Shown in pieces: positions 393 to 58,513 of a stretch of 64,000 bases of DNA (positions are counted from its first letter, which is position 1; each line of letters starts with the position of its first letter). Under the pieces are notes generated by a model. That model was not told the origin of the DNA and ran no database searches. It saw only the letters and a list, made by a program, of their open reading frames with translations. This stretch comes from an uncultured Chloroflexia bacterium (GTDB lineage: Bacteria; Chloroflexota; Limnocylindria; Limnocylindrales; CSP1-4), in contig CAVXPZ010000001.1 of NCBI GenBank assembly GCA_963763775.1, positions 736,001 to 800,000 on the forward strand. Direction: 5' to 3'. The position numbers and the translations under genes are program-made.

Positions 393-767
393 TCAGCGCT
401 CCGCCGAGAGGGTCGACTCCGCGACCACCGCGAGGGCGATCATGAACAGGGCGATCGGCCACTCCAGGAGGTCCTGGATCCGCAGGACGACGAGCACGGT
501 CACGAGGACCCCGACCCACGCCCCGCGACGGACGGCGCGGACCCAGTCGCCGCGATAGGCGATCCGGCGATGGCGGGCGAACACCACGAGCCAGAAGACG
601 GGGATCAGCGTGAGTCCGACGGCGAGGCCCATCAGGGCCGCGCCGACGAACCCGGCCCCTGGCTCGAGGACCGGGTCCCGGGTGGTGACGACGAGCCCGA
701 CGAGCACCCACACGACGGCGGCGGCCGCGAAGATCCCGAGGTTGGCGAGGCGGTCGCGTGACTCCAT
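393..767 (-). CDS. Small membrane protein (about 4 TM), hypothetical
   Basis: Hydrophobic ORF starting MESRDRLANLGIF; TAGACT -10-like hexamer 8 nt upstream of the ATG. Confidence 0.7.
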   Translation of the reverse strand: MESRDRLANLGIFAAAAVVWVLVGLVVTTRDPVLEPGAGFVGAALMGLAVGLTLIPVFWLVVFARHRRIAYRGDWVRAVRRGAWVGVLVTVLVVLRIQDLLEWPIALFMIALAVVAESTLSAER

Positions 768-44836: not shown

Positions 44837-45528
44837 CGGCGGGAGGCCCGGGCGAGGCCGTCGATGTCGGTGACCACGATCGCGTCGCGCTCGAGGCGCA
44901 GGTAGCCGTCGCTGGTGAACTGGCCGAGCAGCTTGTTCACGCTCTGCCGCGTGCTGCCCACCATCGCGGCGAGGTCGCCTTGCGTGAGCGAGGTGCGAAG
45001 GCGGATGGCGCCGTCGTCGAGGGCCGTCCCGCCGTCGGCCATGCGGACGAGGCAGGCCGCGAGGCGCCCGGTGATGTCGAGGAAGTGCAGCTCCTCGACC
45101 TGCGTCGTCAGCCGCCGGAGCTCGCCGGCCAATGAGGCGAGCAGCGCGTCGCGGACGACCGGCTCCTCGGCGATGAGCTCACGGAACCTCGCCCGGGGGA
45201 GGACGACCGCCTCCACGACCCCGAGGGCGGTCGCCGTGGCGGAGCGGGGCGCGCCGTCGAGGAGCGCGAGCTCGCCGAAGACGTCCCCTTGCTGGAGACG
45301 CACGAGGATGGCCTCGTCGCCGCTCTCGGACGGGAGGGAGATCTTCACCTCGCCGGCCACGATGATGAAGAGCGCGTCCCCCGGGTCGCCAAGGTGGAAG
45401 ATCACCTCGCCACGCCGGAAGCGGCGGCTCCGCATGCCGGCCGCGACGCGTTCGAGGGCGTCCGCGCCGAGTCCCGAGAAGAACGGGATCGACGCGAGGG
45501 ATTCGGCGAGACGATGGTCGACGGACAT
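44833..45528 (-). CDS. Crp/Fnr family transcriptional regulator (cNMP-binding)
   Basis: IFHLGDPGD, FGELALLDGAPRSATA phosphate-binding cassette, LTQGDLAAMVGSTRQSVNK HTH. Confidence 0.92.
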   Translation of the reverse strand: MSVDHRLAESLASIPFFSGLGADALERVAAGMRSRRFRRGEVIFHLGDPGDALFIIVAGEVKISLPSESGDEAILVRLQQGDVFGELALLDGAPRSATATALGVVEAVVLPRARFRELIAEEPVVRDALLASLAGELRRLTTQVEELHFLDITGRLAACLVRMADGGTALDDGAIRLRTSLTQGDLAAMVGSTRQSVNKLLGQFTSDGYLRLERDAIVVTDIDGLARASRR

Positions 45529-45529
45529 C

Positions 45530-45641
45530 GCCGCCCATCCTAGCCGCTCGACCCGGCTCGAACGATGCTGTCCGCGGGCCGACAGGCTCCACGTCGGTCC
45601 GGCGTCGCCAGGCACCCATCGTCCCGAGTAGGATGGGCGGC
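45530..45641. promoter_or_regulatory. Mirror-image divergent leaderless promoters (13-bp inverted repeat)
   Basis: GCCGCCCATCCTA (45530-45542) and TAGGATGGGCGGC (45629-45641); each TAGGAT lies 8 nt before an ATG. Confidence 0.6.
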
Positions 45642-45642
45642 C

Positions 45643-46497
45643 ATGACCCCTCCGACGTCCGCCGGACGCCTGCGACTGACCGTGCTCGGCTGCAGCACGG
45701 CGGCCCCGCACGAGGACTGGCCGGCCGCCGGGTTCCTCGTGGACTGGGGCGGGACGACCATCATGCTCGACGCGGGACAAGGGACCATCCGACGCCTCCA
45801 GCGGCTGATGGACCCCACGCACCTCGACGCCCTGGTGGTCGGACACATGCACGCCGACCACTACCTCGATGTCGTCGGCCTGCGCTATCTCTTCCCCTGG
45901 GGCGAGGCCGCGCCTCGAGCCTTGCCCGTCCACCTGCCACCGGGTGGACGAACCCGACTCGATGCGCTCGCCACGGCCATCTCGGAGCGTGAGCGGTTCT
46001 TCGATGCCGCCTTCGACGCCGTCGAGTACGACCCGGAGCGCCCGCTCGCCATCGGGCCGCTCACGATCCGGTTCGTCCGCGGTCGCCACTACGTGCCCGC
46101 CTGGGGGGTCGTCATCGAGGCACCCGACGGCAGCCGGCTCGCGTACACCGGCGATACCGGCCCGAGCGACTCGGTGGTCGAGGCGATGCGTGATGCGGAT
46201 CTGCTGCTCATCGAGGCCGCCCTCCGCCTGCCGAGCCACGACGATCCCGAGCGCGGCCACCTCACCGCCGAGGAGGCGATCGACATGGCGACGCGCTCCG
46301 GCGCCCGGTCCGCCCTGCTCGTGCACTACGCCCCGGCTCGACGGCACGAGTTCGAGACCCTGTGCCAGGCGGCGGGCCCGTGGATCAAGCCGGCCGTCGC
46401 CGGCCTCACGGTCACGGTCAGCCGGCCGGCGATCGACGACCGGGCGGCCTACGAGGCGCGGACCCCCTCGAGCGCGGCCGCAGCCCGCGAGCGGTAG
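45643..46497 (+). CDS. MBL-fold metallohydrolase, probable cyclic-nucleotide phosphodiesterase
   Basis: LTVLGCS..P...PAAGFLV, LDAG.G, HMHADH, H, YTGDTG, GHLT, LVH. Confidence 0.8.
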   Translation: MTPPTSAGRLRLTVLGCSTAAPHEDWPAAGFLVDWGGTTIMLDAGQGTIRRLQRLMDPTHLDALVVGHMHADHYLDVVGLRYLFPWGEAAPRALPVHLPPGGRTRLDALATAISERERFFDAAFDAVEYDPERPLAIGPLTIRFVRGRHYVPAWGVVIEAPDGSRLAYTGDTGPSDSVVEAMRDADLLLIEAALRLPSHDDPERGHLTAEEAIDMATRSGARSALLVHYAPARRHEFETLCQAAGPWIKPAVAGLTVTVSRPAIDDRAAYEARTPSSAAAARER

Positions 46498-48560
46498 TCC
46501 GCCGCCGTCACCGGGTCCCCGGACAGCTCCGCGGCCGTGCGCCAGAACGCGGCCGCCTCCGACGCGGCCCCCATGGCCAGCGCGGCCGCGCCTGCCTCGT
46601 CCAGCAGGGGGATCGCCCGCGCCGAGTCCCCGGATGCCGCGCGGTGGACCGCGATGAGGGTGATCTTGGTCGGGTCCCCGGATGCCTCGAGCTGGTCCGC
46701 GAGCGCGGCATGGAGCTGCCGTCGGCGCGACGTGAGCAGGCCCGCGTAGGCCGCATCGTGGATGAGCGGGTGCCCGAACCGCCAGCCGTCGTCGTCCCCG
46801 GGCAGGATCAACCCGGCGTCCACGAGGCGGTCGATCGTCCCGGCGTCGATCGCGGCGCCCATGAGCCCTTCGACCGACGTCTCGCTGAAGGCCATGCCGA
46901 CGACCGACGCGACGCCGATGGTCGTACGGGCGTCGGGCGGCAGCGCGTCGATCCGGGCGCCGAGCACGGCCCGGAGCGTCAACGGCACCGTGGTGATGGG
47001 GACGTCCGCGAGCGTCACGCGGCCGTCGTGCCAGGCGAGCGTGCCGTCGTCCAGATACGCGAGGACGGTTTCCGTGACGAACAACGGATTGCCCGCCGTG
47101 CGCTCGTGGATCCGGCGGGCGTCGTCGGCATCGACCGCGGCGCGCGCGACCTCCGTCGCGAGTTGCGCGGTCTCGGGCATCGCCAGCCCGCCGAGGCTGA
47201 TCCGTTCGACCCACGGCAGGTCGGCCCAGTACGGGGCGGGGCCGGGGCGCATCCCCGCGAGCACGACCAGTGGTCGCCGCGCGGTCCGGTCGACGAGGAT
47301 CTCGACGAGCCCGACACTCGAGGGATCCATCCAGTGCAGGTCGTCGATGACCACGACCCGTGGTCCGGCCGTCTCCGCGATCCGGTCGATGTAGCGGCCG
47401 GCGACCTCGATGAGGGCCACGATCACCGCGCTCGGGTCCGCCGGGGTGTGGAACGCCTCCGCCTCCCAGCCGCTGAAGGCGGCATCGCGGGCGATCGCCG
47501 CCACCGCACCGCCGAATCGACGTGCATCCTCTTCGCTGGTGTCGGGCGTGAACAGCATCTGTCGGGCGAAGCTGCCCGAGTCCATCTCGTGCTCGTCGGC
47601 CACGATCTGGGCGAACAAGCGGGCGAACCGGTACGGCTCCGACTGGCCGTACGACGTGTTCTCGGTCCACGTCCAGCCGAACCCGCGCTGGCGCACGTCG
47701 GCCTCGACCTCGGCGAGCAGTCGGGTCTTCCCGATCCCGGCTTCGCCCACCACCAGGATGACCCCGCCCGTCCCGCTGTCGGCGAGGCGGTCGAGCATCG
47801 CCCCGATCCGGTCGAGTTCCGCGGCCCGGCCGATGAGGCGTCCCGGCGACCGCGGTCGAGGCAGGCCGTACCCGCCGAGGCCCAGCTCGCCCCCGAGGGC
47901 GTGGATCGCGACCGCCTCGGACTGGCCGCGCAGGACGACGGAGCCGCGGTCGGCGACCACGAGTCGTCCACGGGCCGCCGACAGCGTCGCCGCGTCGAGG
48001 AGGATCTCGCCGGGCCGCGCCAGCGACTGGATGCGCGCGGCCGTCGTGATCGCCCCGCCGGTCAACGCGAGGTCGTCAGGCGTCGATGTCGACCGCCGGG
48101 TGGTGACGACCTCGCCGGTCGCGATGCCGATCCGGACCTCGAGGGGCTCGCCGTCGTCGTGGATGTCCGCCAGGGCCGAGCGGATCCCGAGCCCGGCGAG
48201 GGCGGCGCGGATGGCATCGTCGTCGTGGGCCTGCGGCCACCCGAACACGGCGAAGACCGCGTCGCCGATGAACTTCTCGCGGGTGCCCCCGAACCGCTCG
48301 ATGACGTCGGCCATCGCGCTGAGGGCGACTCGGACGCGCTGCCGGACATCCTCCGGGTCGTGCTCGGCCACCATCCGCACATACCCGACGAGGTCGGCGA
48401 ACAGCGCGGTGACGACCCGCCGGTCGCCGGCCTCGCCCGGGTCAGCCGCGGCACGCCCCGTCCCCGCGGCCGGGACCGGGGATCCGCAGCGGTCGCAGAA
48501 TCGCGCACCGTTCGCGGCATCGGCGCCGCAGGCGTCGCATCGCATCGCGGGGCTGGGCAA
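46449..48560 (-). CDS. Class III adenylate/guanylate cyclase with N-terminal double zinc ribbon and AAA/STAND ATPase domain
   Basis: CDAC..FCDRCG; LFADLVG, EKFIGDAV, RIGIATG, AARIQ; GEAGIGKT, DDLHWMD, GNPLF, FGHPLIHDAAY. Confidence 0.9.
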   Translation of the reverse strand: MPSPAMRCDACGADAANGARFCDRCGSPVPAAGTGRAAADPGEAGDRRVVTALFADLVGYVRMVAEHDPEDVRQRVRVALSAMADVIERFGGTREKFIGDAVFAVFGWPQAHDDDAIRAALAGLGIRSALADIHDDGEPLEVRIGIATGEVVTTRRSTSTPDDLALTGGAITTAARIQSLARPGEILLDAATLSAARGRLVVADRGSVVLRGQSEAVAIHALGGELGLGGYGLPRPRSPGRLIGRAAELDRIGAMLDRLADSGTGGVILVVGEAGIGKTRLLAEVEADVRQRGFGWTWTENTSYGQSEPYRFARLFAQIVADEHEMDSGSFARQMLFTPDTSEEDARRFGGAVAAIARDAAFSGWEAEAFHTPADPSAVIVALIEVAGRYIDRIAETAGPRVVVIDDLHWMDPSSVGLVEILVDRTARRPLVVLAGMRPGPAPYWADLPWVERISLGGLAMPETAQLATEVARAAVDADDARRIHERTAGNPLFVTETVLAYLDDGTLAWHDGRVTLADVPITTVPLTLRAVLGARIDALPPDARTTIGVASVVGMAFSETSVEGLMGAAIDAGTIDRLVDAGLILPGDDDGWRFGHPLIHDAAYAGLLTSRRRQLHAALADQLEASGDPTKITLIAVHRAASGDSARAIPLLDEAGAAALAMGAASEAAAFWRTAAELSGDPVTAADYRSRAAAALEGVRAS

Positions 48561-48646
48561 CCTCCGTCTGTCGCACGCTCGGTGCGCGACAGTCTAGGTC
48601 CCGCCGGCGAGTGTCAAGCGGCCGTCCCGGGGACGGCCGGGCGTGG

Positions 48647-49726
48647 TCAGGAAACGGTGAGGATCGGGCGGTCGGCCGCCTGGGCGGCGCGGACGCTCAT
48701 GCGGGCCGCGACCGCACCGGCGACCGCGGTCAGGGCGCGCGCGGCCGGACCGGGCTCGCGCTGCGCGACCGCCGGGACGCCGACGTCGCCACCCTGGCGG
48801 ACCGTGATGTCGAGCGGGACCCCGCCCAGGAACTCGATCCCGTGCTCCGCGGCGAACCGCTCGCCGCCACCGCGGCCGAAGATCTCGGTCAGCTCGCCGC
48901 AGTGCGGGCACGCGAACGCCGTCATGTTCTCCACGAGCCCGAGGACCGGGACGCTCATCCGCTTGAACATCGCGAGCGCCTTGGCGACGTCCGAGAGGGC
49001 GACCTCCTGGGGCGTCGTCACCAGCACCGCTCCCGAGATCGGCACAGCCTGCGCGAGCGTGAGCTGCGCGTCGGAGGTGCCGGGCGGGAGGTCGATGACC
49101 AGGTAGTCGAGCTCGCCCCAGTCGACATCGCGGAGGAACTGCTGGATGGCCCCGCCGATGAGCGGACCGCGCCACACGATCGGCTGGCCCTCCGGGACGA
49201 AGAACTGGATCGAGATCGTCTTGACGCCGTGCCGCTCGAGCGGGGCGATCTTGTTCGCCTCGGTCGCCTTCGGCTGCCCGTCGATGCCCATCATCATCGG
49301 GATGTTCGGACCCGTGATGTCCGCATCGAGGAGGCCGACCGAGGCGCCCGCCTGCGCGAGGGCGACCGCGAGGTTGACGCTGACGGTGCTCTTCCCGACG
49401 CCACCCTTGCCCGAGGCCACGGCCAGGACGTTCTTGACCCCCGGCAGCAGCTGCTCCGCCTGGCGCGGCTGCGCCCGCCGGACCATCGCGCCCCACGTGA
49501 TGTCGATCCGTTCCGCGCCGATCCCGCCGAGGACGGCCCGCGCGTTGCCCTCGATCTCATCCTTGAGCGGGCAGGCGGGCGTCGTCAGCTCGATGGTGAA
49601 GGCGATGGCGGTGCCGTCGATGGCCACGTCCTTGACCATGTCGAGGGTGACGATGTCGCGTCCGAGCTCGGGCTCCTGGACGGCGCGGAGCGCCTCGATG
49701 ACGTCGTGCTCGGTGAGGGTGGGCAT
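48647..49726 (-). CDS. mrp: Mrp/ApbC (NBP35 family) Fe-S cluster carrier ATPase
   Basis: N-terminal DUF59 (EPEL, TTPACP), SGKGGVGKST, WRGP, DLPPGT, CPHC. Confidence 0.93.
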   Translation of the reverse strand: MPTLTEHDVIEALRAVQEPELGRDIVTLDMVKDVAIDGTAIAFTIELTTPACPLKDEIEGNARAVLGGIGAERIDITWGAMVRRAQPRQAEQLLPGVKNVLAVASGKGGVGKSTVSVNLAVALAQAGASVGLLDADITGPNIPMMMGIDGQPKATEANKIAPLERHGVKTISIQFFVPEGQPIVWRGPLIGGAIQQFLRDVDWGELDYLVIDLPPGTSDAQLTLAQAVPISGAVLVTTPQEVALSDVAKALAMFKRMSVPVLGLVENMTAFACPHCGELTEIFGRGGGERFAAEHGIEFLGGVPLDITVRQGGDVGVPAVAQREPGPAARALTAVAGAVAARMSVRAAQAADRPILTVS

Positions 49727-49891
49727 CGGTGGTGGGTCCCTTCGCGGCGTGGTCGTGGGCCGTTCTGACGGTCGAAGCGTCGATATCCTACCGCGCCGCC
49801 CGGAACCGGCCCGCGAAGGCCCGCTGTCGGCCGCCCGACGGCGGCCGACCAGGCCGACGCCGACCCACGAACTTCGTCGCACCCGACCGCT

Positions 49892-49966
49892 GATTCGTAC
49901 GAATCTCGCAGAACGTGCGCGGCGACGCGCGTTCGATTGACACGCTGCCACGCGCAACCCTATCCT
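49892..49966 (+). promoter_or_regulatory. Sigma70-type promoter of the pot operon with upstream palindromic operator
   Basis: TTGACA (49937)-N18-TATCCT (49961); perfect palindrome GATTCGTACGAATC at 49892-49905. Confidence 0.65.
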
Positions 49967-50002
49967 CGCGCCCATCCGACCCCCCTAGGAGTGCCTGCGA
50001 CC

Positions 50003-52423
50003 GTGCCCACCGTGGACGTCCGGCTCGTCGACGTGGTCAAGAAGTACGGCGAGAACTATGCCGTCGACCACATCAACCTCGAAGTCCAGACGGGGGAGTT
50101 CTTCAGCCTCCTCGGACCGTCCGGCTGCGGCAAGACCACCACCCTGCGGATGATCGGCGGGTTCGAGGCGCCCACCTCCGGCCTGATCGAGCTCAAGGGC
50201 GAGGACGTCACGTGGCTGCCGCCGTACAAGCGCCACGTCAACACCGTCTTCCAGAACTACGCGCTGTTCCCGCACCTGACCGTGTACGAGAACGTGGCCT
50301 TCGGCCTTCGGCGCTCCAAGGTGCCCGATGCCGACGTCAAGTCGCGCGTCACCGAGATGCTCAAGCTCGTCGAGCTCCCCGGGTTCGAGGGTCGCAAGCC
50401 GACGCAGATCTCCGGTGGGCAGGCGCAGCGCGTCGCCCTGGCGCGGGCGCTCATCAACCGGCCGTCGGTCCTGCTCCTTGACGAACCGCTCGGTGCCCTC
50501 GACCTCAAGCTGCGCAAGCAGATGCAGGTCGAGCTCAAGCGCATCCAGCAGGAAGTGGGGATCACGTTCATCTTCGTGACCCACGACCAGGAAGAAGCGA
50601 TGACGATGTCGGATCGCATCGCGGTGATGAACCACGGCAAGTACGAGCAGCTGGCCGATCCCGCCAGCCTGTACGAGCGGCCGCGGACGCGGTTCGTCGC
50701 CGGGTTCCTGGGCGTGAGCAACCTCCTGCCGACGACGTCCCAGGGCACCGACGGTGCGTATTCGGTGGCGAGCCTGGCGGACGGGTCGACGATCCGCGTC
50801 CCGACCACGCTCACCGAGGGCTTCGACCAGTACGAGATCGGCGTCCGCCCCGAGAAGATCCGCCTGCGCGAGCTGACCGACGCCGTGCCAGACGGCCAGA
50901 ACCAGATGACCGGCACCGTCGTCGACGCCTCGTACCTCGGCGTCTCGACGAGCTACATCGTCGAGACCAAGGCCGGTGGCCGCGTCACGGTCTACGAGCA
51001 GAACGTCGAGCGCGCCACGCGCGCCGAGCTGTGGACCCCGGGCGAGGATGTCCGTCTCACCTGGTCGCCCGACCACACCTTCGCCGTCCAGGCGGGCGGC
51101 ACGCCGCCGCCACAGGACCCGGGGATCCCCCTCGTCGCGGGTGACGACGGCGGCGTCCCGGTGCCGCCACCCGCCCCCGGCGTCTCGCGGCGCAAGTTCC
51201 TCATCGGCGGCGCCATCGCGGTCGCGGCCGTCGGGCTCGGCGCCTTCCTCGCCTCCACGTCGGGCGGCGGCGCGCCCGCGGCATCCGAGAGTGCGGCCGC
51301 CGGCGCCTCCTCGGCGCCGCCGGAACCGTCGGTCCCGGCCTCGGCCGGCGCCTCGGCCATCGCGTCCGAGGTCCCGCCCCCGAACCCGACCGGCCCGCTC
51401 CAGTGGGCGAACTGGATCGGCTATATCGACATCGACGAGGCCACCGGCACACACCCGACGATCGAGAAGTTCACCAAGGAGACGGGGATCCAGGTCAACT
51501 ACGTCGAGTCGATCGACGGCAACGAGGAGTTCTTCACCAGCAACCTCAAGGACCCGCTCCAGGCGGGGCTGCCGACGGCCTGGGACCTCATCGTCATGAC
51601 CGACTGGATGATCGACCGGTTGGTGCGGCTCGGCTGGCTCGAGGCGCTCGACCGCGACGCCATGCCGAACTTCGTCGCGAACCTCCTGCCGCTCTACGTC
51701 GGCCGCTCGTTCGACCCGGACACGCATTTCGCGGCGCCGTGGCAGTCCGGGATGACCGGGCTGGGGTTCAACCTCAAGAAGACCGGGCCGCAGGACTCGC
51801 TCGAAGTGCTCTTCTCCGACCAGTTCGCAAAGAAGCTCACGTATCTCACGGAGATGCGCGACACGGTCGGCCTGTCGGCCCTCCGCCTCGGCGTCGACCC
51901 CGCGACGATCACCGCCGACCAGTTCGCGGCGGCTCTCGCCGAGGTCGACAAGGCCGTCAAGGCCGGGTACGTCCGACAGGTCGAGGGCAACTCCTACGTC
52001 AACACCATGGCGTCGGGTGATGCGGTCATGGCCATGGCCTGGTCTGGCGACGTCCTGACCCTGCTCGTCCCGGACCAGACGAAGGACCAGGACTTCCAAT
52101 GGGTGCTCGCCAAGGAAGGCGGGATGCTCTGGACCGACAACATGGCCGTGCCGAAGGGCTCGCCGAACAAGGTCCTCGCCCAGAAGTGGATCGACTTCTA
52201 CTACGACCCGATCAATGCGGCGACGATCGAGGCGTACGTCAACTACGTGTGCCCGGTCAAGGGCGCCCGCGACGTGATGCTGACGATCGACCCTGACCTG
52301 GCGAACAACCCGCTCATCTTCCCGCCGCCCGACTACGTCGCCCGGCTCCACCAGTTCCGCTCGACCACGGCCGAGGAAGAGCAGGCGTGGAGCGAGGCGT
52401 TCACGAAGGTCATGGGGCTCTAG
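50003..52423 (+). CDS. Fused polyamine ABC ATPase (PotA) - TM segment - substrate-binding protein (PotD)
   Basis: GPSGCGKT, ISGGQ, LLDEP, VTHDQ, TOBE-like region; SRRKFL plus hydrophobic stretch; WANWIGYID, PWQSGMTG, AWSG, WTDNM, NNPLIFP. Confidence 0.85.
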   Translation: MPTVDVRLVDVVKKYGENYAVDHINLEVQTGEFFSLLGPSGCGKTTTLRMIGGFEAPTSGLIELKGEDVTWLPPYKRHVNTVFQNYALFPHLTVYENVAFGLRRSKVPDADVKSRVTEMLKLVELPGFEGRKPTQISGGQAQRVALARALINRPSVLLLDEPLGALDLKLRKQMQVELKRIQQEVGITFIFVTHDQEEAMTMSDRIAVMNHGKYEQLADPASLYERPRTRFVAGFLGVSNLLPTTSQGTDGAYSVASLADGSTIRVPTTLTEGFDQYEIGVRPEKIRLRELTDAVPDGQNQMTGTVVDASYLGVSTSYIVETKAGGRVTVYEQNVERATRAELWTPGEDVRLTWSPDHTFAVQAGGTPPPQDPGIPLVAGDDGGVPVPPPAPGVSRRKFLIGGAIAVAAVGLGAFLASTSGGGAPAASESAAAGASSAPPEPSVPASAGASAIASEVPPPNPTGPLQWANWIGYIDIDEATGTHPTIEKFTKETGIQVNYVESIDGNEEFFTSNLKDPLQAGLPTAWDLIVMTDWMIDRLVRLGWLEALDRDAMPNFVANLLPLYVGRSFDPDTHFAAPWQSGMTGLGFNLKKTGPQDSLEVLFSDQFAKKLTYLTEMRDTVGLSALRLGVDPATITADQFAAALAEVDKAVKAGYVRQVEGNSYVNTMASGDAVMAMAWSGDVLTLLVPDQTKDQDFQWVLAKEGGMLWTDNMAVPKGSPNKVLAQKWIDFYYDPINAATIEAYVNYVCPVKGARDVMLTIDPDLANNPLIFPPPDYVARLHQFRSTTAEEEQAWSEAFTKVMGL

Positions 52424-52428
52424 CCACC

Positions 52429-53424
52429 ATGCGACGCGCGGTGAGCTTCCGCACCATCGCCCCATATGCCCTGCTGCTGCCGGGCCTCCTCTGGCTCGCG
52501 ATCTTCTTCGTCTACCCGGCCATCCAGATGTTCCTCGTGTCGCTGTGGACCGGGTCCATCTCGACCGGGTTCACGCAGACGTGGAACTGGGGCATCTACC
52601 CGGAGGCGTTCTCCGAGTACTGGCCCTGGATCGGCCGCTCCATCGTGTATGGCGGCCTCGCCACGATCCTGGCGTTCTCGCTGGGCTTCCCGCTCGCGTA
52701 CGCGATCGCGTTCCGCGGCGGCGCCTACAAGAACCTGCTGCTGTTCATGGTCATCGCGCCGTTCTTCACGAGCTTCCTGCTGCGGACGATCTCCTGGAAG
52801 ATCATCCTCTCGGACGACGGGATCTTCCTCGGACCGCTCAAGACGATCGGGATCATCCCGGCCGACTTCCAGCTGCTCGCGACGCCAGCGGCCGTGATCG
52901 CCGGGATCACGTACAACTTCCTGCCGTTCATGACGCTGCCGCTGTACGTCGCCCTCGAGAAGATCGACCGGCGGCTGCTGGAGGCGGCGTCCGACCTGTA
53001 CGCCGGGCCGTGGCGCCCGCGCGGCACCATCGTCGGGGCCATCGTCGGCGGCGTCCTCGGCGCCATCGTCGGCATCGTCATGGACTACGGCCCGCTCTCG
53101 CTCGGCATCCCCGGGCTGATCCTCGGCATGCTCGTCGGGACGTTCCTGATCAGCGAGGCCTTCATCCGGGTCACGCTCCCGCTCGCCTTGCCTGGCATCT
53201 TCGCCGGCTCGCTGCTGGTGTTCATCCCGGCGGTCGGCGACTACATCAACGCGGAGCTGCTCGGCAACCCGCAGTCCCTGATGATCGGCAACGTCATCCA
53301 GGCGCGGTACCTCAAGGTGACGGACTATCCGACCGCGTCGGCGCTGTCGTTCATCCTCATGGCCGCGATCCTCGTCGGCGTCCTCATCTACACCCGACTC
53401 CTCGGGACCGAGGAGCTGGTCTGA
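52429..53424 (+). CDS. potB: Polyamine ABC permease PotB with hydrophobic insertion in the EAA loop
   Basis: GFPLAY, PFFTSFLLR, YNFLPFM.LPLY, EAASDL...RVTLPL, FIPAVGDY, MIGN. Confidence 0.9.
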   Translation: MRRAVSFRTIAPYALLLPGLLWLAIFFVYPAIQMFLVSLWTGSISTGFTQTWNWGIYPEAFSEYWPWIGRSIVYGGLATILAFSLGFPLAYAIAFRGGAYKNLLLFMVIAPFFTSFLLRTISWKIILSDDGIFLGPLKTIGIIPADFQLLATPAAVIAGITYNFLPFMTLPLYVALEKIDRRLLEAASDLYAGPWRPRGTIVGAIVGGVLGAIVGIVMDYGPLSLGIPGLILGMLVGTFLISEAFIRVTLPLALPGIFAGSLLVFIPAVGDYINAELLGNPQSLMIGNVIQARYLKVTDYPTASALSFILMAAILVGVLIYTRLLGTEELV

Positions 53425-54314
53425 TGGCTGTCGCGACCGTGGCCTCCACCCGTCCCGCGTCCCTTGGCGACCGGCTCCACCGGGCTGCCGATCGGTGGCT
53501 CCTGCCGATCTACGTCGTGGGCGTGACCCTGTACCTGATCCTGCCGGTCCTCGTGATGATCGCGTTCAGCTTCAACGACCCGGCCGGCCGGTCCAACCTC
53601 CAGTGGCGTGGCTTCTCGCTCGACGCCTGGATGAACCCGCTCGGGCGCCCGGGCCTCCCCGAGGCGGTCCGGAACAGCCTCCTCATCGCCTTCCTGTCGA
53701 CGATCGTCGCGACGATGCTCGGGACGCTGATCGCGCTGGCGCTCGTCCGGTACTCCTTCCGGGGCCGATCCGGGACGAACCTGCTGATCTTCCTCCCGAT
53801 GTCGACGCCGGAGATCGTGCTCGGAGCCTCGCTCCTGACGACGTTCGTGGCGTCGGTCAAGCTGCCGTTCATCCCCCAGGGGATCGTCTATCCGCTCAGC
53901 ATCACCACGATCGTCATCGCCCACATCATGTTCTGCATCAGCTTCGTGGTCGTCACCGTGAAGGCCCGGTTGCAGGGGTTCCCGAGGCACCTCGAGGAGG
54001 CGGCCATGGACCTCGGCGCCAACGAATGGACGACCTTCTGGAAGGTGACGTTCCCGCTCATCCTCCCGGGCATCGCGGCCGCGGGGCTGCTCGCGTTCAG
54101 CCTGTCGATCGACGACTACGTGGTGACGAGCTTCACGGCCGGCCAGACCCAGACCTTCCCGCTCTTCATCTACGGTTCCCAGCTGCGCGGCATCCCCGTC
54201 CAGGTGAATGTCATCGGCACCATCATCTTCGTGGTGGCGGTCATGTTCGTCCTCATGACGACGCTCTGGCAGCGTCGGGTGGCCGCGAGGGAGTACAACA
54301 GCGGCATCGTCTGA
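53424..54314 (+). CDS. potC: Polyamine ABC permease PotC
   Basis: FSFN, NSL.IA, PEIV.G, AH, EEAAMDLGA, FWKVTFP, SIDD. Confidence 0.9.
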   Translation: MAVATVASTRPASLGDRLHRAADRWLLPIYVVGVTLYLILPVLVMIAFSFNDPAGRSNLQWRGFSLDAWMNPLGRPGLPEAVRNSLLIAFLSTIVATMLGTLIALALVRYSFRGRSGTNLLIFLPMSTPEIVLGASLLTTFVASVKLPFIPQGIVYPLSITTIVIAHIMFCISFVVVTVKARLQGFPRHLEEAAMDLGANEWTTFWKVTFPLILPGIAAAGLLAFSLSIDDYVVTSFTAGQTQTFPLFIYGSQLRGIPVQVNVIGTIIFVVAVMFVLMTTLWQRRVAAREYNSGIV

Positions 54315-54342
54315 CGACGACCGCCATCCGGAGGCTTCTCGC

Positions 54343-55671
54343 ATGGTCGACACCGCCGACGCACCCGCTCGCGCCGCCGGGGCTCCCCTCCCCGACCACG
54401 CCGTGGTCCCGCCCGTCTGGGGCCGCATCACCAACCTCGACGTCGATCGCGGCGAGGGATCCTGGCTGATCACCCGCGACGGGGATCGCTACCTCGACTA
54501 TTCGTCGGGGATCGGGGTCACGAACACGGGCCACGCCCACCCACGGGTGGCGGCCGCCGTCGCGGCACAGGCGACGAAGCTGCTCCACGGGCAGCAGAAC
54601 ATCCTCTACCACGAGCCCGGGTTGCGGCTCTACGACCGGTTGCGGCACGTGCTGCCCGGCGGGCCGTGGCAGGCGTTCCTGTCGAACTCGGGCGCGGAGG
54701 CGGTCGAGGCGTCGGTGAAGCTGGCCCGCGCCGCCACGGGCCGCCCGGCGATCATGGCGTTCCGTTACGGCTATCACGGCCGGACCGCCCAGACGATGGC
54801 CCTGACGACCGCGAAGGACGTCTACCGGGCGGCTTTCGAGCCGCTGCCGGGGTCCGTGTACCACACGCCCTACCCGTACTGCTACCGGGCCGCGGGCGGT
54901 CCCCATCCGATCGACGCGTGTACCTGCGATTGGGAGGAGCAGCTCGACCTGACGTTCCACCAGTTCATCTACCCGGACCGCGTGGCGGCGATCATCATCG
55001 AGCCCGTCCTGGGCGAAGGCGGGTATCTCGTCCCGCCGACCGGGTTCCTGCCGCGGCTCCGCGAGATCACCCGCGAGCACGGGATCCTGCTGATCGCCGA
55101 CGAGGTCCAGACGGGCTTCGGCCGGACCGGCGAGATGTTCGCCGTCCAGCATTGGGGCGTCGAGCCCGACATCCTCGTGATGGCCAAGGGCATCGCGTCG
55201 GGCCTCCCGCTGTCGGGCATCCTCGCGCGCCAGGACCTCATGGCCGCCTGGAAACCCGGGACGCACGGCGGCACGTACGGCGGCAATGTGGTGTCATGCG
55301 CGGCCGCGAACGCGACCCTCGACGTCATCGAGGACGAGGGACTCGTGGCCAATGCGCGGGAGCGTGGCCGCCAGTTCCTCGACGGTCTCAGGACCCTGGC
55401 CGGCAAGTACGGGTCGATCGGCGACGTGCGCGGCCTCGGGCTGATGGTCGCGATCGAGCTGGTCAAGCCGGGGATCGGCGACGGCCGCACGCCGGACCCG
55501 GACCTCACGAAACGGATCCAGGCCGAGGCCCTCGCCCGCAAGCTGATCGTGCTGACCGCCGGCACCTACGTGAACGTGGTCCGGATCATCCCGCCCCTGG
55601 TCACGACGGCCGCCGAGGTCGACCAGGCGCTCGGCATCCTCGACGAGGCGCTGGCCGCCGCCGGGGCGTGA
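54343..55671 (+). CDS. Class III PLP aminotransferase (GabT/putrescine aminotransferase-like)
   Basis: NSGAEAVE, YHGRT, EPVLGEGG, DEVQTGFGRTG, MAKGIASG, GTYGGN. Confidence 0.9.
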   Translation: MVDTADAPARAAGAPLPDHAVVPPVWGRITNLDVDRGEGSWLITRDGDRYLDYSSGIGVTNTGHAHPRVAAAVAAQATKLLHGQQNILYHEPGLRLYDRLRHVLPGGPWQAFLSNSGAEAVEASVKLARAATGRPAIMAFRYGYHGRTAQTMALTTAKDVYRAAFEPLPGSVYHTPYPYCYRAAGGPHPIDACTCDWEEQLDLTFHQFIYPDRVAAIIIEPVLGEGGYLVPPTGFLPRLREITREHGILLIADEVQTGFGRTGEMFAVQHWGVEPDILVMAKGIASGLPLSGILARQDLMAAWKPGTHGGTYGGNVVSCAAANATLDVIEDEGLVANARERGRQFLDGLRTLAGKYGSIGDVRGLGLMVAIELVKPGIGDGRTPDPDLTKRIQAEALARKLIVLTAGTYVNVVRIIPPLVTTAAEVDQALGILDEALAAAGA

Positions 55672-56267
55672 CCGTCGTCGTCCTTCCTGCGACGCCCGAG
55701 CGGTGGGACGACGTCGCGGCCGTGTTCGCCGGCGACGGGCCCAAGGGCTGCTGGTGCCACGTCTGGCGCACGCTCAGCCCCATCCCGCCAGCGCAGGGTG
55801 ACGGCTCCGGCGAGCGGAACCTGCGGACCCAGGTCGAGACGGACCCGACGCCGCCCGGTCTGCTCGCCTACGACGATGGCGTCCCGTCAGGCTGGATCCG
55901 GCTCGGACCGCGTGACGGCATCGGGCGGCTCGTCCGGTCGAGGACGATCCCGCGGATCGACGACGTGCCCGTCTGGTCGATCGTGTGCTTCAAGGTCCTG
56001 CCCGGCCATCGCCGCAAGGGCGTCGCGCGGGCGCTGCTGGCTGGGGCCGTGGACTTCGCGAGCGGTTCGGGGGCCCCGGCGCTCGAGGCCTACCCCATCG
56101 ACGCGGGGGGCCGGCGCCTCGACGTGTCGTTCTCGTTCGTCGGCTTCACCTCGATGTTCGAGGCGGCCGGGTTCCGAAGGGTGGCCGAGACGAACGCCCA
56201 TAGCGCCGGGCGGCCGCGGATCCTCATGCGCCTCGACCTGACCGAGGCGGCCGTCACGGCCGGCTAG
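55668..56267 (+). CDS. GNAT family N-acetyltransferase
   Basis: GCWC, WSIVCF.V...HRRKGVARALL, LEAYP, F..AGF. Confidence 0.85.
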   Translation: MTVVVLPATPERWDDVAAVFAGDGPKGCWCHVWRTLSPIPPAQGDGSGERNLRTQVETDPTPPGLLAYDDGVPSGWIRLGPRDGIGRLVRSRTIPRIDDVPVWSIVCFKVLPGHRRKGVARALLAGAVDFASGSGAPALEAYPIDAGGRRLDVSFSFVGFTSMFEAAGFRRVAETNAHSAGRPRILMRLDLTEAAVTAG

Positions 56268-57535
56268 ACCAGCCCGACCTCGCGAGCCTCGCGGGTCAAG
56301 GCGTCGCGGTGGTCCGGGTGCGCGATCCCGATGAGGGAGGCGGCCCGCTCGCGCAGGGACCGGCCGAAGAGCTCGGCGACGCCATACTCGGTGACGATCG
56401 TCCGGGCATGGGCACGGGTGGTCACGACGCCGGCGCCCTCCTTGAGCGTGGCCACGATCCGGGACATCGATCCGCCGGCGGCGGTCGACGGCAGGGCGAT
56501 GATCGCGCGGCCCTCCGAAGCCAGCGCGGCGCCACGGATGAAGTCCATCTGGCCGCCGACACCGCTGTACACATGCGATCCGATGGAGTCGGCGACGACC
56601 TGGCCGGTCAGGTCGACCTCGATGGCGGAGTTGATCGCCGTCATCCGGCTGAACGAGCGGATGACGTGCGTGTCGTTCGTGAAATCGACCGAGCGCATCT
56701 CGATCATCGGGTTGTCGTGGACGAACCGGTACAGCCGGTCGCTGCCCATCATGAACGCCGTCACGATCTTCCCGCGGTTGCGCTCCTTGCGCGCTCCCGT
56801 GATGACGCCCGCCTCCACGAGGTCGACCACGCTGTCGGTGAACATCTCGGTGTGGACACCGAGGTCGCGGTGGTCGCGAAGCGCCAGGGCCGTCGCGGCC
56901 GGGATGGCCCCGATCCCCAGCTGGATCGTGGCGCCGTCCGGCACGAGCTCGGCGACGTACTGGCCGATCCGGCGCTCGATGTCGCCGATCGGGCCGACCG
57001 GCCGGGCGTACGGGGGGATGTCGACTTCGATCGCGAGGTCGATGTCGTCGACGTGGATGAAGCTCTCGCCGAGCGTGCGCGGGAGCGCGGGGTTGAGCTG
57101 GGCGATGACGGTCGTCGCCGCGCGGATCGCCGCATGCATCGCCTCCACCGAGACGTTCAGCGAGCAGAAGCCGTGGGCGTCCGGCGGGGTCACGTTCACG
57201 AGGACGGCATCGAGCGGGACCGCCCCGGATTCGAACAGCCGCGGCACGTCCGAGAGGAAGACCGGGACATAGTCCGCACGGCCCTCGCGGATCGCCGCCC
57301 GGGCGTTCGGCCCCACGAACAGGGCCCGGTGCCGGAAGTGCCCGGCCATCTCCGGCGCGAGGTGCGGGCCCGGACCTTCCGTGTGCAGGTGGACCATCCC
57401 CACGTCGCGCAACTCTGGCGCGCGCGCCACGAGCGCGTCGAGCAGGACGCTCGGCGCCGCGGCCGCGCATTGGACATAGACCTGGTCGCCGGAACGGATC
57501 CCGGCGACGGCCTCGTCAGGGGCGACGATTCGCAT
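56264..57535 (-). CDS. Acetyl-CoA hydrolase/transferase family (4-hydroxybutyrate CoA-transferase-like)
   Basis: QLGIGAIP, LGVHTEMF (catalytic Glu), NSAIEVDLTGQ, SGVGGQMDF, VTEYGVA. Confidence 0.9.
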   Translation of the reverse strand: MRIVAPDEAVAGIRSGDQVYVQCAAAAPSVLLDALVARAPELRDVGMVHLHTEGPGPHLAPEMAGHFRHRALFVGPNARAAIREGRADYVPVFLSDVPRLFESGAVPLDAVLVNVTPPDAHGFCSLNVSVEAMHAAIRAATTVIAQLNPALPRTLGESFIHVDDIDLAIEVDIPPYARPVGPIGDIERRIGQYVAELVPDGATIQLGIGAIPAATALALRDHRDLGVHTEMFTDSVVDLVEAGVITGARKERNRGKIVTAFMMGSDRLYRFVHDNPMIEMRSVDFTNDTHVIRSFSRMTAINSAIEVDLTGQVVADSIGSHVYSGVGGQMDFIRGAALASEGRAIIALPSTAAGGSMSRIVATLKEGAGVVTTRAHARTIVTEYGVAELFGRSLRERAASLIGIAHPDHRDALTREAREVGLV

Positions 57536-57672
57536 CCGGCACCGGTCGAGATCGTGACAGGAGGTTCATGAGGGACGTCATCGCGAACCCAGCATGCCGG
57601 TGCGGCGCGGGGCGTCCACACGGCCGGATGGCCCGGTCCGAGGGTCCGAGCGGCAGGTTCACGGTCCCGAAC

Positions 57673-58513
57673 CTACCCAGCCAGCAGCCGGTCTCGGACC
57701 GTGTCGTGGAGCAGGCCGTTCGAGGTCAGGAAGGAGCCGCTGTCGATCGCGCGACGGCCGTCGAGGTCCGTGACACGCCCGCCGGCCTCCTCGACGAGGA
57801 CCAGCGGCGCGGCGGCGTCCCACGACTTCAGCCCGACCTCGACCATGGCCTCGGCCGCGCCCTCCGCGACGAGCGCGTAGCCCCAGAAGTCGCCGAATCC
57901 GCGCTCGCGCCAGACGTCGTCGAGCAGGCCGCGTGAACCCGGGGGCGCGACCGGACGCGGCGATGTCGCGGGCCGAGCCGTAGAGCACCTGGGCGTCCTC
58001 GAGTGCCGCGACCCGGGACACCCGGATGCGCCGCGGTGGCTCGCCGCGGTGGCTCGCCCACGCCCCGCCGGCGCGCCAGGCCCACCAGCGCTCGTCGAGC
58101 GCCGGCGCCGACAGCACGGCGGCCTGCAACTCCCCGTCACGCTCGACGGCGAGCAGCGTCCCGAACAACGGCACGCCGCGGATGTAGTTGTGCGTCCCGT
58201 CGATCGGGTCGATGTACCAGCGGACCGAGGCATCGCCGGCCTCGGTGCCGTATTCCTCGCCGACCAGACCGTGGTCCGGGAACGCGTCCAGCAGCCGGCC
58301 GCGGATCATGCGTTCGATCGCGGTGTCCGCCTGGGTGACGAACGTCCGGTCCGGCTTGGTCTCGATGGTCAGGTCGCGTCGGAAGTGCTCGCGCGCGATG
58401 CCGTCGGCCTCGTCGCACGCCGCCATGGCCACGTCGAGCCAGCCGCGCAGCTCGGCGTCCGTGCCACGTCGACGCTCGGCGGACCACTCGGTCCCGTACG
58501 GCCGCTCGCTCAT
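57673..58513 (-). CDS. hisN: Histidinol-phosphatase, inositol monophosphatase family; frameshift near 57935
   Basis: KPDRTFVTQAD, GEE, WYIDPIDGTHN, RGFGDFW, WDAAA..VEEAGG. Confidence 0.8.

What the first reader, a model, noticed from the sequence alone, without database searches (positions are those of the whole stretch)
50003..52423. ABC importer ATPase fused through a TM segment to its own substrate-binding protein (PotA-TM-PotD)
Seen in sequence: one uninterrupted ORF contains a complete PotA (Walker A/B, signature, H-loop, TOBE-like region), a Pro/Gly linker, SRRKFL plus about 18 hydrophobic residues (51185-51256), an Ala/Ser/Pro stalk and a complete PotD-like domain. The junction keeps GC-rich third positions in frame, and I see no Shine-Dalgarno ahead of the one internal GTG (51161). 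The end of the hydrophobic stretch reads FLASTSGG, with no lipobox Cys where Tat-lipoprotein SBPs usually have LAAC. Established: SBP-permease fusions (OpuA, GlnP) and NBD-TMD fusions are known; I do not know of a described NBD-TM-SBP single chain. Inference: a former Tat lipoprotein signal became a permanent internal anchor. That gives a membrane-spanning protein with cytoplasmic ATPase and external receptor, two SBPs per transporter, and possibly an internal Tat motif. Caveat: this assembly has many indel errors.
Basis: partly seen in the sequence, partly recalled or inferred. Interest (0 to 1): 0.9.

Follow-up and report, generated by a model that had tools for sequence, protein, structure and literature searches.

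The report
ABC ATPase fused to its receptor
One gene encodes the cytoplasmic ATPase of a polyamine-type ABC importer joined, through a membrane-spanning segment that was once a lipoprotein export signal, to the transporter's own external binding protein, an arrangement that is conserved, evolved repeatedly and does not appear to have been described.

Summary
Window 50003-52423(+) is one open 806-codon frame. It holds a PotA-type ATPase with a TOBE domain, a Pro/Gly linker, an S-R-R-K-F-L motif followed by the protein's only strongly hydrophobic segment, an Ala/Ser/Pro stalk, and a PotD/PotF-type binding domain.

It is not an assembly error. 91 other public proteins at 41-79% identity have the same layout, and so do 12 of the 35 same-genus genomes searched.

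Both arginines are invariant in 92 of 92 fused proteins, and none has a cysteine after the hydrophobic segment. Split relatives instead carry a twin-arginine lipoprotein signal (RR, 17 residues, Cys).

ATPase-domain trees place fused forms in three separate positions among split forms, in lineages labelled Chloroflexi and Acidimicrobiia.

Best reading: a single-chain ATPase, membrane anchor and external receptor, giving two tethered receptors per transporter. It is probably inserted by the Tat pathway as a "class V" substrate like FecR.

Topology, Tat dependence and expression are inferred, not shown. Five literature searches found no description of this layout. Verdict: a new variant of a known kind, interest about 0.7.

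The parts
49937..49966 (+). sigma-70-like promoter match (TTGACA, 18 nt, TATCCT) ahead of the operon
   Evidence: 10 of 12 positions match. One such site was found in the region against 0.4 expected. This is a consensus match only.
50003..52423 (+). fused potA-TM-potD gene (806 codons plus TAG)
   Evidence: open frame; Pfam; full-length homologues
50066..50491 (+). ABC ATPase core (residues 22-163), with Walker A, signature and Walker B readable in the translation
   Evidence: ABC_tran E 6.1e-35; the model's N-terminal half matches E. coli PotA (8y5f_A, TM-score 0.90 on the target, 43% identity).
50837..51085 (+). TOBE_2 regulatory domain (residues 279-361)
   Evidence: E 1.4e-18
51089..51184 (+). 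cytoplasmic Pro/Gly-rich linker (residues 363-394)
   Evidence: sequence; the distance from the TOBE end to RR is 29-38 residues in the 44 clade A proteins; pLDDT below 50.
51185..51202 (+). twin-arginine motif S-R-R-K-F-L (RR = 51188-51193)
   Evidence: R396 and R397 invariant in 92 of 92; motif [S/G]-R-R-x-[F/L/V]-[L/I/V].
51197..51259 (+). hydrophobic segment (residues 399-419), predicted N-in/C-out membrane anchor ending in ...FLAST where split relatives have ...FLAAC
   Evidence: mean hydrophobicity over 19 residues is 2.29, against 1.36 for a split relative's signal; comparison with split forms.
51260..51397 (+). extracytoplasmic Ala/Ser/Pro/Gly stalk (residues 420-465)
   Evidence: stalk length 44-59 residues in clade A; pLDDT below 50.
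51398..52420 (+). PotD/PotF-type substrate-binding domain (residues 466-806; Pfam SBP_bac_8 on 487-772)
   Evidence: best solved relative is the putrescine-binding protein 7xjm (E 2.7e-31); fold matches to PotD 4eqb and PotF 6yec, TM-score 0.83-0.87 on the target.
52429..53424 (+). potB-like permease (331 aa), beginning 5 nt after the fused gene's stop
   Evidence: BPD_transp_1, E 1.1e-05, 25.6 bits, just under the 26.4-bit cut-off; alignment with 32 relatives.
53424..54314 (+). potC-like permease; its ATG overlaps the potB stop (TGATG)
   Evidence: BPD_transp_1, E 1.4e-17; sequence of the overlap.
54343..55671 (+). class-III aminotransferase, followed at 55674-56267 by a GNAT acetyltransferase: a likely catabolic partner of the importer
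   Evidence: Aminotran_3 E 1.2e-120; Acetyltransf_1 E 6.5e-09

Best explanation
The gene encodes one polypeptide that is both the ATPase and the substrate receptor of a PotABCD-type (polyamine or related amine) ABC importer.

Residues 1-362 (ATPase plus TOBE domain) stay in the cytoplasm and dimerise on PotB/PotC as PotA does. A proline-rich linker of about 30 residues leads back up to the membrane. Residues 395-419 are a twin-arginine signal that is no longer cleaved or lipidated. It works as a permanent N-in/C-out anchor. A flexible stalk of about 45 residues then tethers a PotD/PotF-type binding domain outside the cell.

Since one ATPase gene serves the operon, each transporter would carry two anchors and two tethered receptors. 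No separate binding-protein gene lies in the operon.

The anchor descends from the Tat lipoprotein signal that split relatives still use: the lipobox Cys was lost and the hydrophobic core lengthened. The C-terminal domain is most likely moved across the membrane by the Tat system from an internal, uncleaved signal. That is the 'class V' Tat substrate type so far exemplified by FecR.

Shown here: the open frame, the domains, the conservation, the RR invariance, and the contrast with split relatives. Inferred: topology, stoichiometry, absence of cleavage, Tat dependence, and the substrate.
For: Architecture.

Conservation:
- Of the 120 best hits, 93 align over more than 300 residues to both halves.
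- 92 fused sequences (the window's protein plus 91 others) align at 41-79% identity.
- 12 of the 35 same-genus genomes searched carry an uninterrupted junction.

Selection on the anchor:
- RR is invariant in 92 of 92. The following residue is A 37, K 25, R 16, N 8, T 5, V 1.
- No Cys occurs within 45 residues after RR in any of the 92.
- The hydrophobic core has a median of 20 residues (clade A, n=44) and 21 (clade B, n=48).

Origin: split relatives have RR + 17 residues + Cys in 33 of 41 loci by regex. The 19-residue hydrophobicity rises from 1.36 (split) to 2.29 (fused).

Recurrence:
- ATPase-domain trees put the fused forms at three places among split forms; starred branches force 3 changes among 116 rows.
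- Clade A is monophyletic with support 99 (24 rows) and 98 (141 rows), nested in split PotAs of the same family.

No conserved internal start: 2 of 13 fused loci have no in-frame start codon in the 30 codons before RR, and only 2 of 13 have a Shine-Dalgarno-like motif.

Machinery: the genome has TatC, two TatA, three Lgt and LspA.

Operon: potB and potC follow at +5 nt and with a 1-nt overlap, with no other binding-protein gene.

Precedent: a 2026 Tat review defines class V substrates, with an internal uncleaved Tat signal behind a folded cytoplasmic domain, FecR being the example (passage seen).
Against: There is no expression or protein evidence: no RNA run held the stretch.

No raw reads of the source sample were available. 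45 nt of the TM-coding part (51193-51237) were covered only by diverged contigs.

AlphaFold2 gave no confident structure for residues 371-460 (pLDDT below 50; only residues 396-405 are helical). No dedicated TM, signal-peptide or Tat predictor was available.

The lengthened, more hydrophobic core could equally favour Sec/SRP insertion. RR may then persist as a positive-inside determinant.

All fused sequences come from metagenome-derived or unnamed records. I could name no cultured carrier.

A valine codon that could serve as GTG is common in the linker, so some internal initiation cannot be excluded.
Confidence: 0.7

Rival explanations
1. Assembly or gene-calling artefact: potA and potD are separate genes, and an indel error in this assembly removed the stop and merged the frames.
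For: Relatives do contain frameshift-like breaks: G161 potA, L023 and L024, and L009 later in the SBP domain. In split relatives potD follows potA directly, sometimes in the same frame with a single stop between them (L008, L011, L027 and others).
Against: The same uninterrupted layout occurs in 91 other proteins from three sources at 41-79% identity and in 12 of 35 same-genus genomes. The anchor differs systematically from the split signal: no Cys in 92 of 92 and a longer core. A single indel in a split gene pair would not produce those differences. Near-identical contigs from other runs show no indel over 50895-51192 or 51238-51415.
Confidence: 0.02
2. The frame is fused, but the mature proteins are separate. 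Either translation also starts inside the linker (for example at GTG 51161), or the chain is cut after the hydrophobic segment by a signal peptidase. Either way the cell ends up with a free PotA and a separate binding protein.
For: 11 of 13 fused loci have at least one in-frame ATG, GTG or TTG in the 30 codons before RR. The stalk is rich in Ala, Ser and Gly, which can form peptidase sites.
Against: The candidate starts are not conserved in position. Only 2 of 13 have a Shine-Dalgarno-like motif, and 2 of 13 have no start codon at all. No Ala-x-Ala pattern is conserved after the core in the alignment (by eye). A cleaved, unlipidated binding protein would be lost from a cell without an outer membrane. 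If the join had no function, the frame would not stay open across three independent origins and 41% identity.
Confidence: 0.12
3. The single-chain topology is as in the best explanation, but the anchor is inserted by SRP with Sec/YidC. The twin arginines are only a retained positive-inside signal.
For: The core became longer and more hydrophobic than in the split Tat signals (2.29 against 1.36). From recalled work on E. coli signals, that change tends to redirect Tat signals to Sec.
Against: RR is never RK, KR or KK in 92 of 92 fused proteins, although Lys is common at the next position (25 of 92). The whole [S/G]-R-R-x-[F/L/V]-[L/I/V] consensus is kept in three independent fusions. Uncleaved Tat signal anchors with long cores are known, namely Rieske proteins (classes III and IV in the review passage).
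Confidence: 0.25
4. The binding-protein-like domain stays in the cytoplasm as a regulatory sensor, as in cyanobacterial NrtC and CmpC.
For: NrtC is an ATPase fused to a C-terminal domain about 30% identical to the binding protein NrtA, and that domain is cytosolic (passages seen).
Against: This protein has a 19-21 residue hydrophobic segment preceded by RR between the two domains. The operon has no other binding-protein gene to serve as receptor. The domain's closest relatives are exported Tat lipoproteins encoded at the same position in split operons.
Confidence: 0.03

Closest known systems
E. coli PotABCD / PotFGHI polyamine importers
   Same: The ATPase with its C-terminal regulatory domain, the two permeases and the binding-protein fold are all shared. 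The model's N-terminal half matches PotA 8y5f at 43% identity with TM-score 0.90. The C-terminal half matches PotD and PotF.
   Different: There, the ATPase and the binding protein are separate polypeptides and the binding protein is soluble. Here they form one chain joined through a membrane segment, and the gene order is A-D-B-C.
Binding domains fused to the permease (OpuA, GlnPQ type)
   Same: The receptor is covalently tethered to the transporter, giving two or more receptors per complex. This is recalled from van der Heide and Poolman 2002. An OpuA paper appeared in the listing. SBD/TMD fusion is described in passages of PMC8144104.
   Different: In those systems the receptor is joined to the membrane domain. 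Here it is joined to the cytoplasmic ATPase and needs an extra membrane pass of its own.
NrtC / CmpC of cyanobacterial nitrate and bicarbonate importers
   Same: An ABC ATPase carries a C-terminal domain homologous to the system's binding protein (PMC10945777, passages).
   Different: The NrtC domain is cytosolic and regulatory, there is no membrane segment, and a separate lipoprotein NrtA is the receptor. Here a TM segment with RR intervenes and no other receptor gene is present.
Class V Tat substrates (FecR)
   Same: An internal, uncleaved twin-arginine signal lies behind a folded cytoplasmic domain and carries a folded C-terminal domain across the membrane (review PMC13673990, passage).
   Different: FecR is an anti-sigma regulator of diderm bacteria. 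Here the cargo is a transporter's receptor and the cytoplasmic part is an enzyme. Tat dependence is not shown here.
Rieske-type Tat signal anchors (classes III and IV; Keller 2012, Tooke 2017)
   Same: These are uncleaved twin-arginine signals used as membrane anchors, and in actinobacteria they are internal (listing and abstract starts; review passage). The Rieske Tat-signal Pfam model weakly hits residues 394-415.
   Different: Those substrates carry cofactors, and the internal ones follow Sec-inserted helices rather than a soluble domain.
Tat lipoprotein binding proteins encoded by the split relatives
   Same: They share the RRxFL motif, the same binding-domain types and the same operon position.
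   Different: They have a lipobox Cys 18 residues after RR, a shorter core, and their own start codon.

Membership tests
ABC importer ATPase of the PotA/MalK type | ABC_tran domain with Walker A, signature, Walker B and H-loop | tested here: met
   (E 6.1e-35). The motifs are readable and invariant.
ABC importer ATPase of the PotA/MalK type | C-terminal TOBE-type regulatory domain and PotA-like fold | tested here: met
   TOBE_2, E 1.4e-18; 8y5f_A, TM-score 0.90 on the target
PotD/PotF polyamine-binding proteins | Two-lobe binding-protein fold with sequence homology to PotD/PotF | tested here: met
   SBP_bac_8; 22 solved relatives, best E 2.7e-31; TM-score 0.83-0.87
PotD/PotF polyamine-binding proteins | Ligand-contacting residues that specify putrescine or spermidine | not tested
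   The binding-site residues were not compared, so the substrate is inferred only from family and from the neighbouring aminotransferase.
Tat substrate, class V (internal uncleaved signal) | Twin-arginine consensus followed by a hydrophobic stretch | tested here: met
   (RR in 92 of 92; [S/G]RRx[F/L/V][L/I/V])
Tat substrate, class V (internal uncleaved signal) | Signal preceded by a folded cytoplasmic domain and followed by a folded domain | tested here: met
   two confidently folded halves (1-370 and 461-806) flank the signal.
Tat substrate, class V (internal uncleaved signal) | Export depends on TatABC and on the RR pair; the signal is not cleaved | not testable with these tools
   Only the presence of tatC and tatA in the genome could be checked. 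The absence of a lipobox was shown.
Tat lipoprotein binding protein | Lipobox with Cys at the end of the signal | tested here: not met
   0 of 92 fused proteins have a Cys within 45 residues after RR. Split relatives do have it.
Binding domain fused to permease (OpuA/GlnPQ type) | Binding domain on the same chain as the membrane domain | tested here: not met
   The chain holds an ATPase and no BPD_transp_1 domain. The permeases are separate genes.
NrtC/CmpC-type ATPase with a cytosolic binding-protein-like domain | No membrane segment between the domains, and a separate receptor gene in the operon | tested here: not met
   A hydrophobic segment scoring 2.29 lies between the domains. The operon has no other binding-protein gene.

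The most novel reading that the evidence does not exclude
This is a previously undescribed class of ABC importer in bacteria that probably lack an outer membrane. The receptor is tethered to the ATPase, not to the permease or to a lipid, by an internal twin-arginine signal anchor.

The layout arose at least three times from Tat lipoprotein signals, in one Chloroflexi-labelled genus and twice among Acidimicrobiia-type sequences. In the window's genus, one ATPase-plus-anchor lineage has since been combined with three different receptor/permease cassettes.

If so, it would be the second natural family of class V Tat substrates, and the first in which the cytoplasmic part is an enzyme of the same machine.
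Probability: 0.55. Interest if true: 0.78.

Novelty: new variant of a known kind. Interest (0 to 1): 0.7.

Why it matters
ABC importers are textbook modular machines. The known ways to attach the receptor are free, lipid-anchored, on its own N-terminal helix, or fused to the permease. A receptor fused across the membrane to the ATPase adds a fifth way.

It fixes the stoichiometry at two receptors per complex. It adds two membrane helices to the complex. It also physically links the part that senses substrate outside to the part that burns ATP inside.

Its repeated origin from the same kind of export signal is a clean natural example of a cleavable signal becoming a structural membrane anchor.

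It would also widen the very small set of proteins whose internal Tat signal follows a folded cytoplasmic domain. That would give the Tat field a second, easily assayed model.

The layout is rare: only two full-length fused representatives appear among the best 150 of 1.84 billion cluster representatives. General annotation pipelines label these proteins simply as ATP-binding proteins.

Tried and rejected
- No RNA holder was listed for the stretch. Only Logan contigs of four metagenome runs could be laid, no raw reads, and no piece spans the whole junction.
- Complex prediction with PotB, PotC and the anchor segment 378-445 returned no answer. It counts neither way.
- AlphaFold2 left residues 371-460 unstructured, so it says nothing about the anchor.
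- Rfam found nothing in 45000-58000.
- Literature searches for a described ATPase-receptor fusion found none. The 'NBD-SBD' hits were Hsp70 papers, plus PMC8144104, where the dash means assembly and not fusion.
- A second candidate fusion in the same genome (an SBP_bac_8 hit inside a 796-aa open frame) turned out to be an ordinary lipoprotein behind a spurious GC-rich open frame.
- G161, whose SBP match lay in an 828-aa open frame, is split, with a frameshifted potA.
- Matches that span both halves with one internal stop are split gene pairs that happen to share a frame.
- L054 and L055, the closest named records, are split.
- Of the 120 best hits, 27 were not used because they did not align over 300 residues to both halves. 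These were partial or frameshift-like, for example P0029, P0062 and P0066. P0002 (identical to the window's protein) and P0065 (741 aa, long branch, different junction) were dropped before alignment A2.
- The Atlas clusters with ABC_tran plus SBP_bac_1 (665 aa, 82 members; 624 aa, 93 members, Bacillota) were not examined.
- Supplements of papers were closed. The lists of candidate families with internal Tat signals in Tooke et al. 2017 may sit there, and I could not check whether ABC proteins are among them.
Full report
WHAT IS THERE

The window holds one open frame, 49937..52423(+). From GTG 50003 it reads 806 residues without a stop. That GTG is preceded by AGGAG at an 11-nt spacing and matches the start of the homologues.

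Pfam finds ABC_tran on residues 22-163, TOBE_2 on 279-361 and SBP_bac_8 on 487-772. It also gives a sub-threshold hit of the Rieske Tat-signal model on 394-415.

Between the two folded halves lie four elements:
- a Pro/Gly-rich linker;
- the motif S-R-R-K-F-L (RR at 51188-51193);
- the protein's only strongly hydrophobic 19-residue window (399-417; mean Kyte-Doolittle 2.29, next best 1.17);
- an Ala/Ser/Pro/Gly stalk.

Third-position GC stays at 0.89-1.00 across all of this.

An AlphaFold2 model built on 92 sequences folds residues 1-370 and 461-806 confidently and leaves 371-460 below pLDDT 50. The N-terminal half matches E. coli PotA (8y5f_A, 43% identity, TM-score 0.90 on the target). The C-terminal half matches PotD and PotF (4eqb, 6yec; 0.83-0.87). 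No solved chain covers both halves. By sequence, the closest solved relative of the C-terminal domain is a putrescine-binding protein (7xjm, E 2.7e-31).

The operon continues as follows:
- a potB-like gene 5 nt after the stop;
- a potC-like gene whose ATG overlaps the potB stop;
- a class-III aminotransferase and a GNAT acetyltransferase.

No other binding-protein gene is present. Upstream, on the other strand, lies an Mrp/NUBPL-type ATPase.

IS IT REAL?

Read evidence is thin. Only low-depth Logan contigs of four metagenome runs could be laid:
- Near-identical pieces cover 50895-51192, 51238-51415 and 51420-51609 without gaps.
- 51193-51237 is covered only by diverged pieces.
- One depth-2 contig has a compensating +1/-1 pair.
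- No RNA run held the stretch.

Conservation is what settles it:
- The word-indexed protein search returned 7826 hits among 7999 scored candidates. Of the 120 best that were listed, 93 align over more than 300 residues to both halves.
- I dropped the window's own entry (P0002) and P0065, which has a different junction and a long branch. The remaining 91 plus the query align at 41-79% identity.
- They come from NCBI, ENA and JGI assemblies, on contigs from a few kb to several Mb.
- In whole genomes, 12 of the 35 genomes of the window's genus that were searched have an uninterrupted junction: G000, G003, G005, G010, G015, G017, G019, G020, G024, G180, G235 and G281. G024 has a later frame change inside the binding domain.
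- No genome of the other genera or families sampled in that class showed a continuous match at the threshold used.

The threshold (E at most 1e-150) would have missed distant fused paralogues, and that search used a stricter first look. These counts are therefore floors.

WHERE THE ANCHOR CAME FROM

In split relatives potD follows potA directly and begins with a twin-arginine lipoprotein signal of the form (S/T)-R-R-x-F-L-Q-G ... A-F-L-A-A-C.

- By regular expression, 33 of 41 split loci have RR, exactly 17 residues, then Cys.
For L052 I did not establish why the pattern failed. Most show the same signal by eye.

The fused proteins keep the motif: [S/G]-R-R-x-[F/L/V]-[L/I/V], followed by G-G in most.

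- R396 and R397 are the only invariant residues between position 313 and position 471 of the 92-sequence alignment.
- The residue after RR is Lys in 25 of 92, so arginine is not there merely because the genomes are GC-rich.
- None of the 92 has a Cys within 45 residues after RR.
- The uncharged core has a median of 20 residues in clade A (range 18-30, n=44) and 21 in clade B (18-24, n=48).
- The 19-residue hydrophobicity rises from 1.36 in a split signal to 2.29.

HOW OFTEN, AND IN WHOM

An ATPase-domain tree of 24 loci puts the nine fused loci in one clade (SH-aLRT 99), nested among split PotAs of the same family. With 141 rows the clade holds 55 fused rows (support 98). A second group of 48 fused proteins lies on a separate long branch.

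Adding named records (116 rows, FastTree, every third database protein) gives three placements:
- The window's clade sits among split genes of MAGs titled Chloroflexi or Chloroflexia.
- A second fused clade (L056, an Acidimicrobiales MAG, plus 15 proteins) sits with split genes of an Ilumatobacteraceae MAG and an Actinomycetota MAG (support 99).
- One further fused protein (P0094; with P0076 and P0103) sits with split genes titled Microthrix, Iamiaceae, Mycobacterium and Acidimicrobiia (support 97).

Starred branches force three changes of state. These are FastTree local supports, and several rows have long branches. 'At least two' origins is therefore safe, and 'three' is likely.

Source names on clade B proteins are Iamia sp., Desertimonas sp., Microthrixaceae and Acidimicrobiia. 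The phylum label for the window's clade rests only on the titles of its nearest named relatives. I did not place the genome myself.

The layout is rare. In the library of 1.84 billion 50%-identity representatives, only two of the best 150 are full-length fused proteins (807 and 800 aa).

MODULARITY INSIDE THE GENUS

The binding-domain tree contradicts the ATPase tree. Fused loci fall into three deep receptor types, each with split sisters:
- type I: L001-L005 with split L013 and L014;
- type II: L007 and L010 with split L008, L012, L020 and L025;
- type III: L006 with split L015-L018 and L024.

Holding the fused rows together costs 693 log-likelihood units (p-AU 5e-14). One caveat applies: I named the group after seeing the tree.

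PotB and PotC identity follows the receptor type, not the ATPase clade. The same mixing of receptor types is seen among split operons in the ATPase tree.

The simplest reading is one fusion in this genus, followed by exchange of the receptor/permease cassette downstream of the anchor. The conserved G-P-L-x-F-A-N-W-x-x-Y-I-D start of the binding domain is a plausible crossover site. This reading is inference.

HOW IT PROBABLY WORKS

Shown: the domains, the anchor's properties, their conservation, and the presence of tatC, two tatA, three lgt and lspA in the genome.

Inferred:
- The ATPase half stays inside and dimerises on PotB/PotC, as PotA does.
- The linker of 29-38 residues climbs from the membrane-distal TOBE domain to the membrane.
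- The RR-bearing helix spans the membrane N-in/C-out.
- The 44-59 residue stalk lets the receptor reach the permease.
- Each complex has two receptors and two extra helices.

For export, the closest precedent is what a 2026 review calls class V Tat substrates. These have an internal, uncleaved Tat signal behind a folded cytoplasmic domain, with FecR as the example. Class III and IV Rieske proteins use uncleaved Tat signals as anchors (passage seen). For Keller 2012 and Tooke 2017 I saw only the listing and the abstract starts. Passmore 2020 I know only through that review passage.

A conserved internal start is unlikely. 2 of 13 fused loci have no in-frame start codon in the 30 codons before RR, and only 2 of 13 have a Shine-Dalgarno-like motif.

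The rivals are Sec-dependent insertion, internal initiation or cleavage, a cytosolic sensor like NrtC (passages seen), and an artefact. They are weighed in their own sections.

COMPARISON AND NOVELTY

The parts are ordinary members of the PotA and PotD/PotF families. The way they are joined is not ordinary.

Known receptor attachments fuse the binding domain to the permease. OpuA and GlnPQ are recalled; SBD/TMD fusion appears in passages of PMC8144104. The known ATPase-receptor-like fusion, NrtC, keeps the domain in the cytoplasm.

Five full-text searches found no description of an ATPase-TM-receptor chain. Database pipelines name these proteins 'polyamine ABC transporter ATP-binding protein' or 'spermidine/putrescine transport system ATP-binding protein'.

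The library excludes most subscription journals and all supplements, so 'not found in these searches' is the correct wording. I rate the finding a new variant of a known kind.

VERDICT

Interest is about 0.7. The join is real, conserved and recurrent, and it is directly testable. Topology, Tat dependence and any functional advantage remain to be shown.

Noticed in passing
window 53011-53157 (PotB residues about 195-243); also L002-L005, L007-L010, L013, L014, L020, L025, L027-L030, L034-L036, L054: The potB-like permease carries an insert of about 46-55 residues directly after the E-A-A-x-D-L-Y-A-G-P-W-R-P stretch of its cytoplasmic coupling loop. The insert consists of two glycine-zipper-like hydrophobic stretches. 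It is present in fused and split operons alike, and absent from operons with the type III receptor and from others. Pfam gives only weak Gly-zipper hits. An extra hydrophobic hairpin in the loop that docks the ATPase is unusual.
   Followed up: partly
L001-L030 (related loci of the same genus): The receptor/PotB/PotC cassette occurs in three deep types that do not follow the ATPase tree, in split as well as fused operons. This suggests frequent cassette exchange behind a conserved potA.
   Followed up: partly
L141 (G161), L023 (G012), L024 (G001), L009 (G024): Several relatives show frame changes inside potA or the binding domain. They look like indel errors of long-read assemblies or like pseudogenes.
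   Followed up: partly
window 46449-48560 (-): A 703-aa protein combines an adenylate/guanylate cyclase catalytic domain with an AAA_16 ATPase domain.
   Followed up: no
window 54343-56267 (+): A class-III aminotransferase and a GNAT acetyltransferase follow the permease genes directly. This suggests that the imported amine is transaminated or acetylated.
   Followed up: no
ESM Atlas clusters, not in the window: Two other clusters combine ABC_tran with a binding-protein domain: one of 665 aa with 82 members, and one of 624 aa with 93 members, commonest in Bacillota. I did not check whether they have a membrane segment or are NrtC-like.
   Followed up: no
P0065, P0068, P0112 (proteins): These proteins of about 735-750 aa combine ABC_tran and SBP domains with a different junction (…T-R-R-x-L-V-Q-R-G-A-A-G… then L-P-G-L), preceded by segments that look out of frame. 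They may be frameshifted gene pairs or another kind of join.
   Followed up: no
window 49937-49966 (+): The only sigma-70-like promoter match in 49600-56600 lies just ahead of the fused gene. No such match lies near the junction.
   Followed up: no
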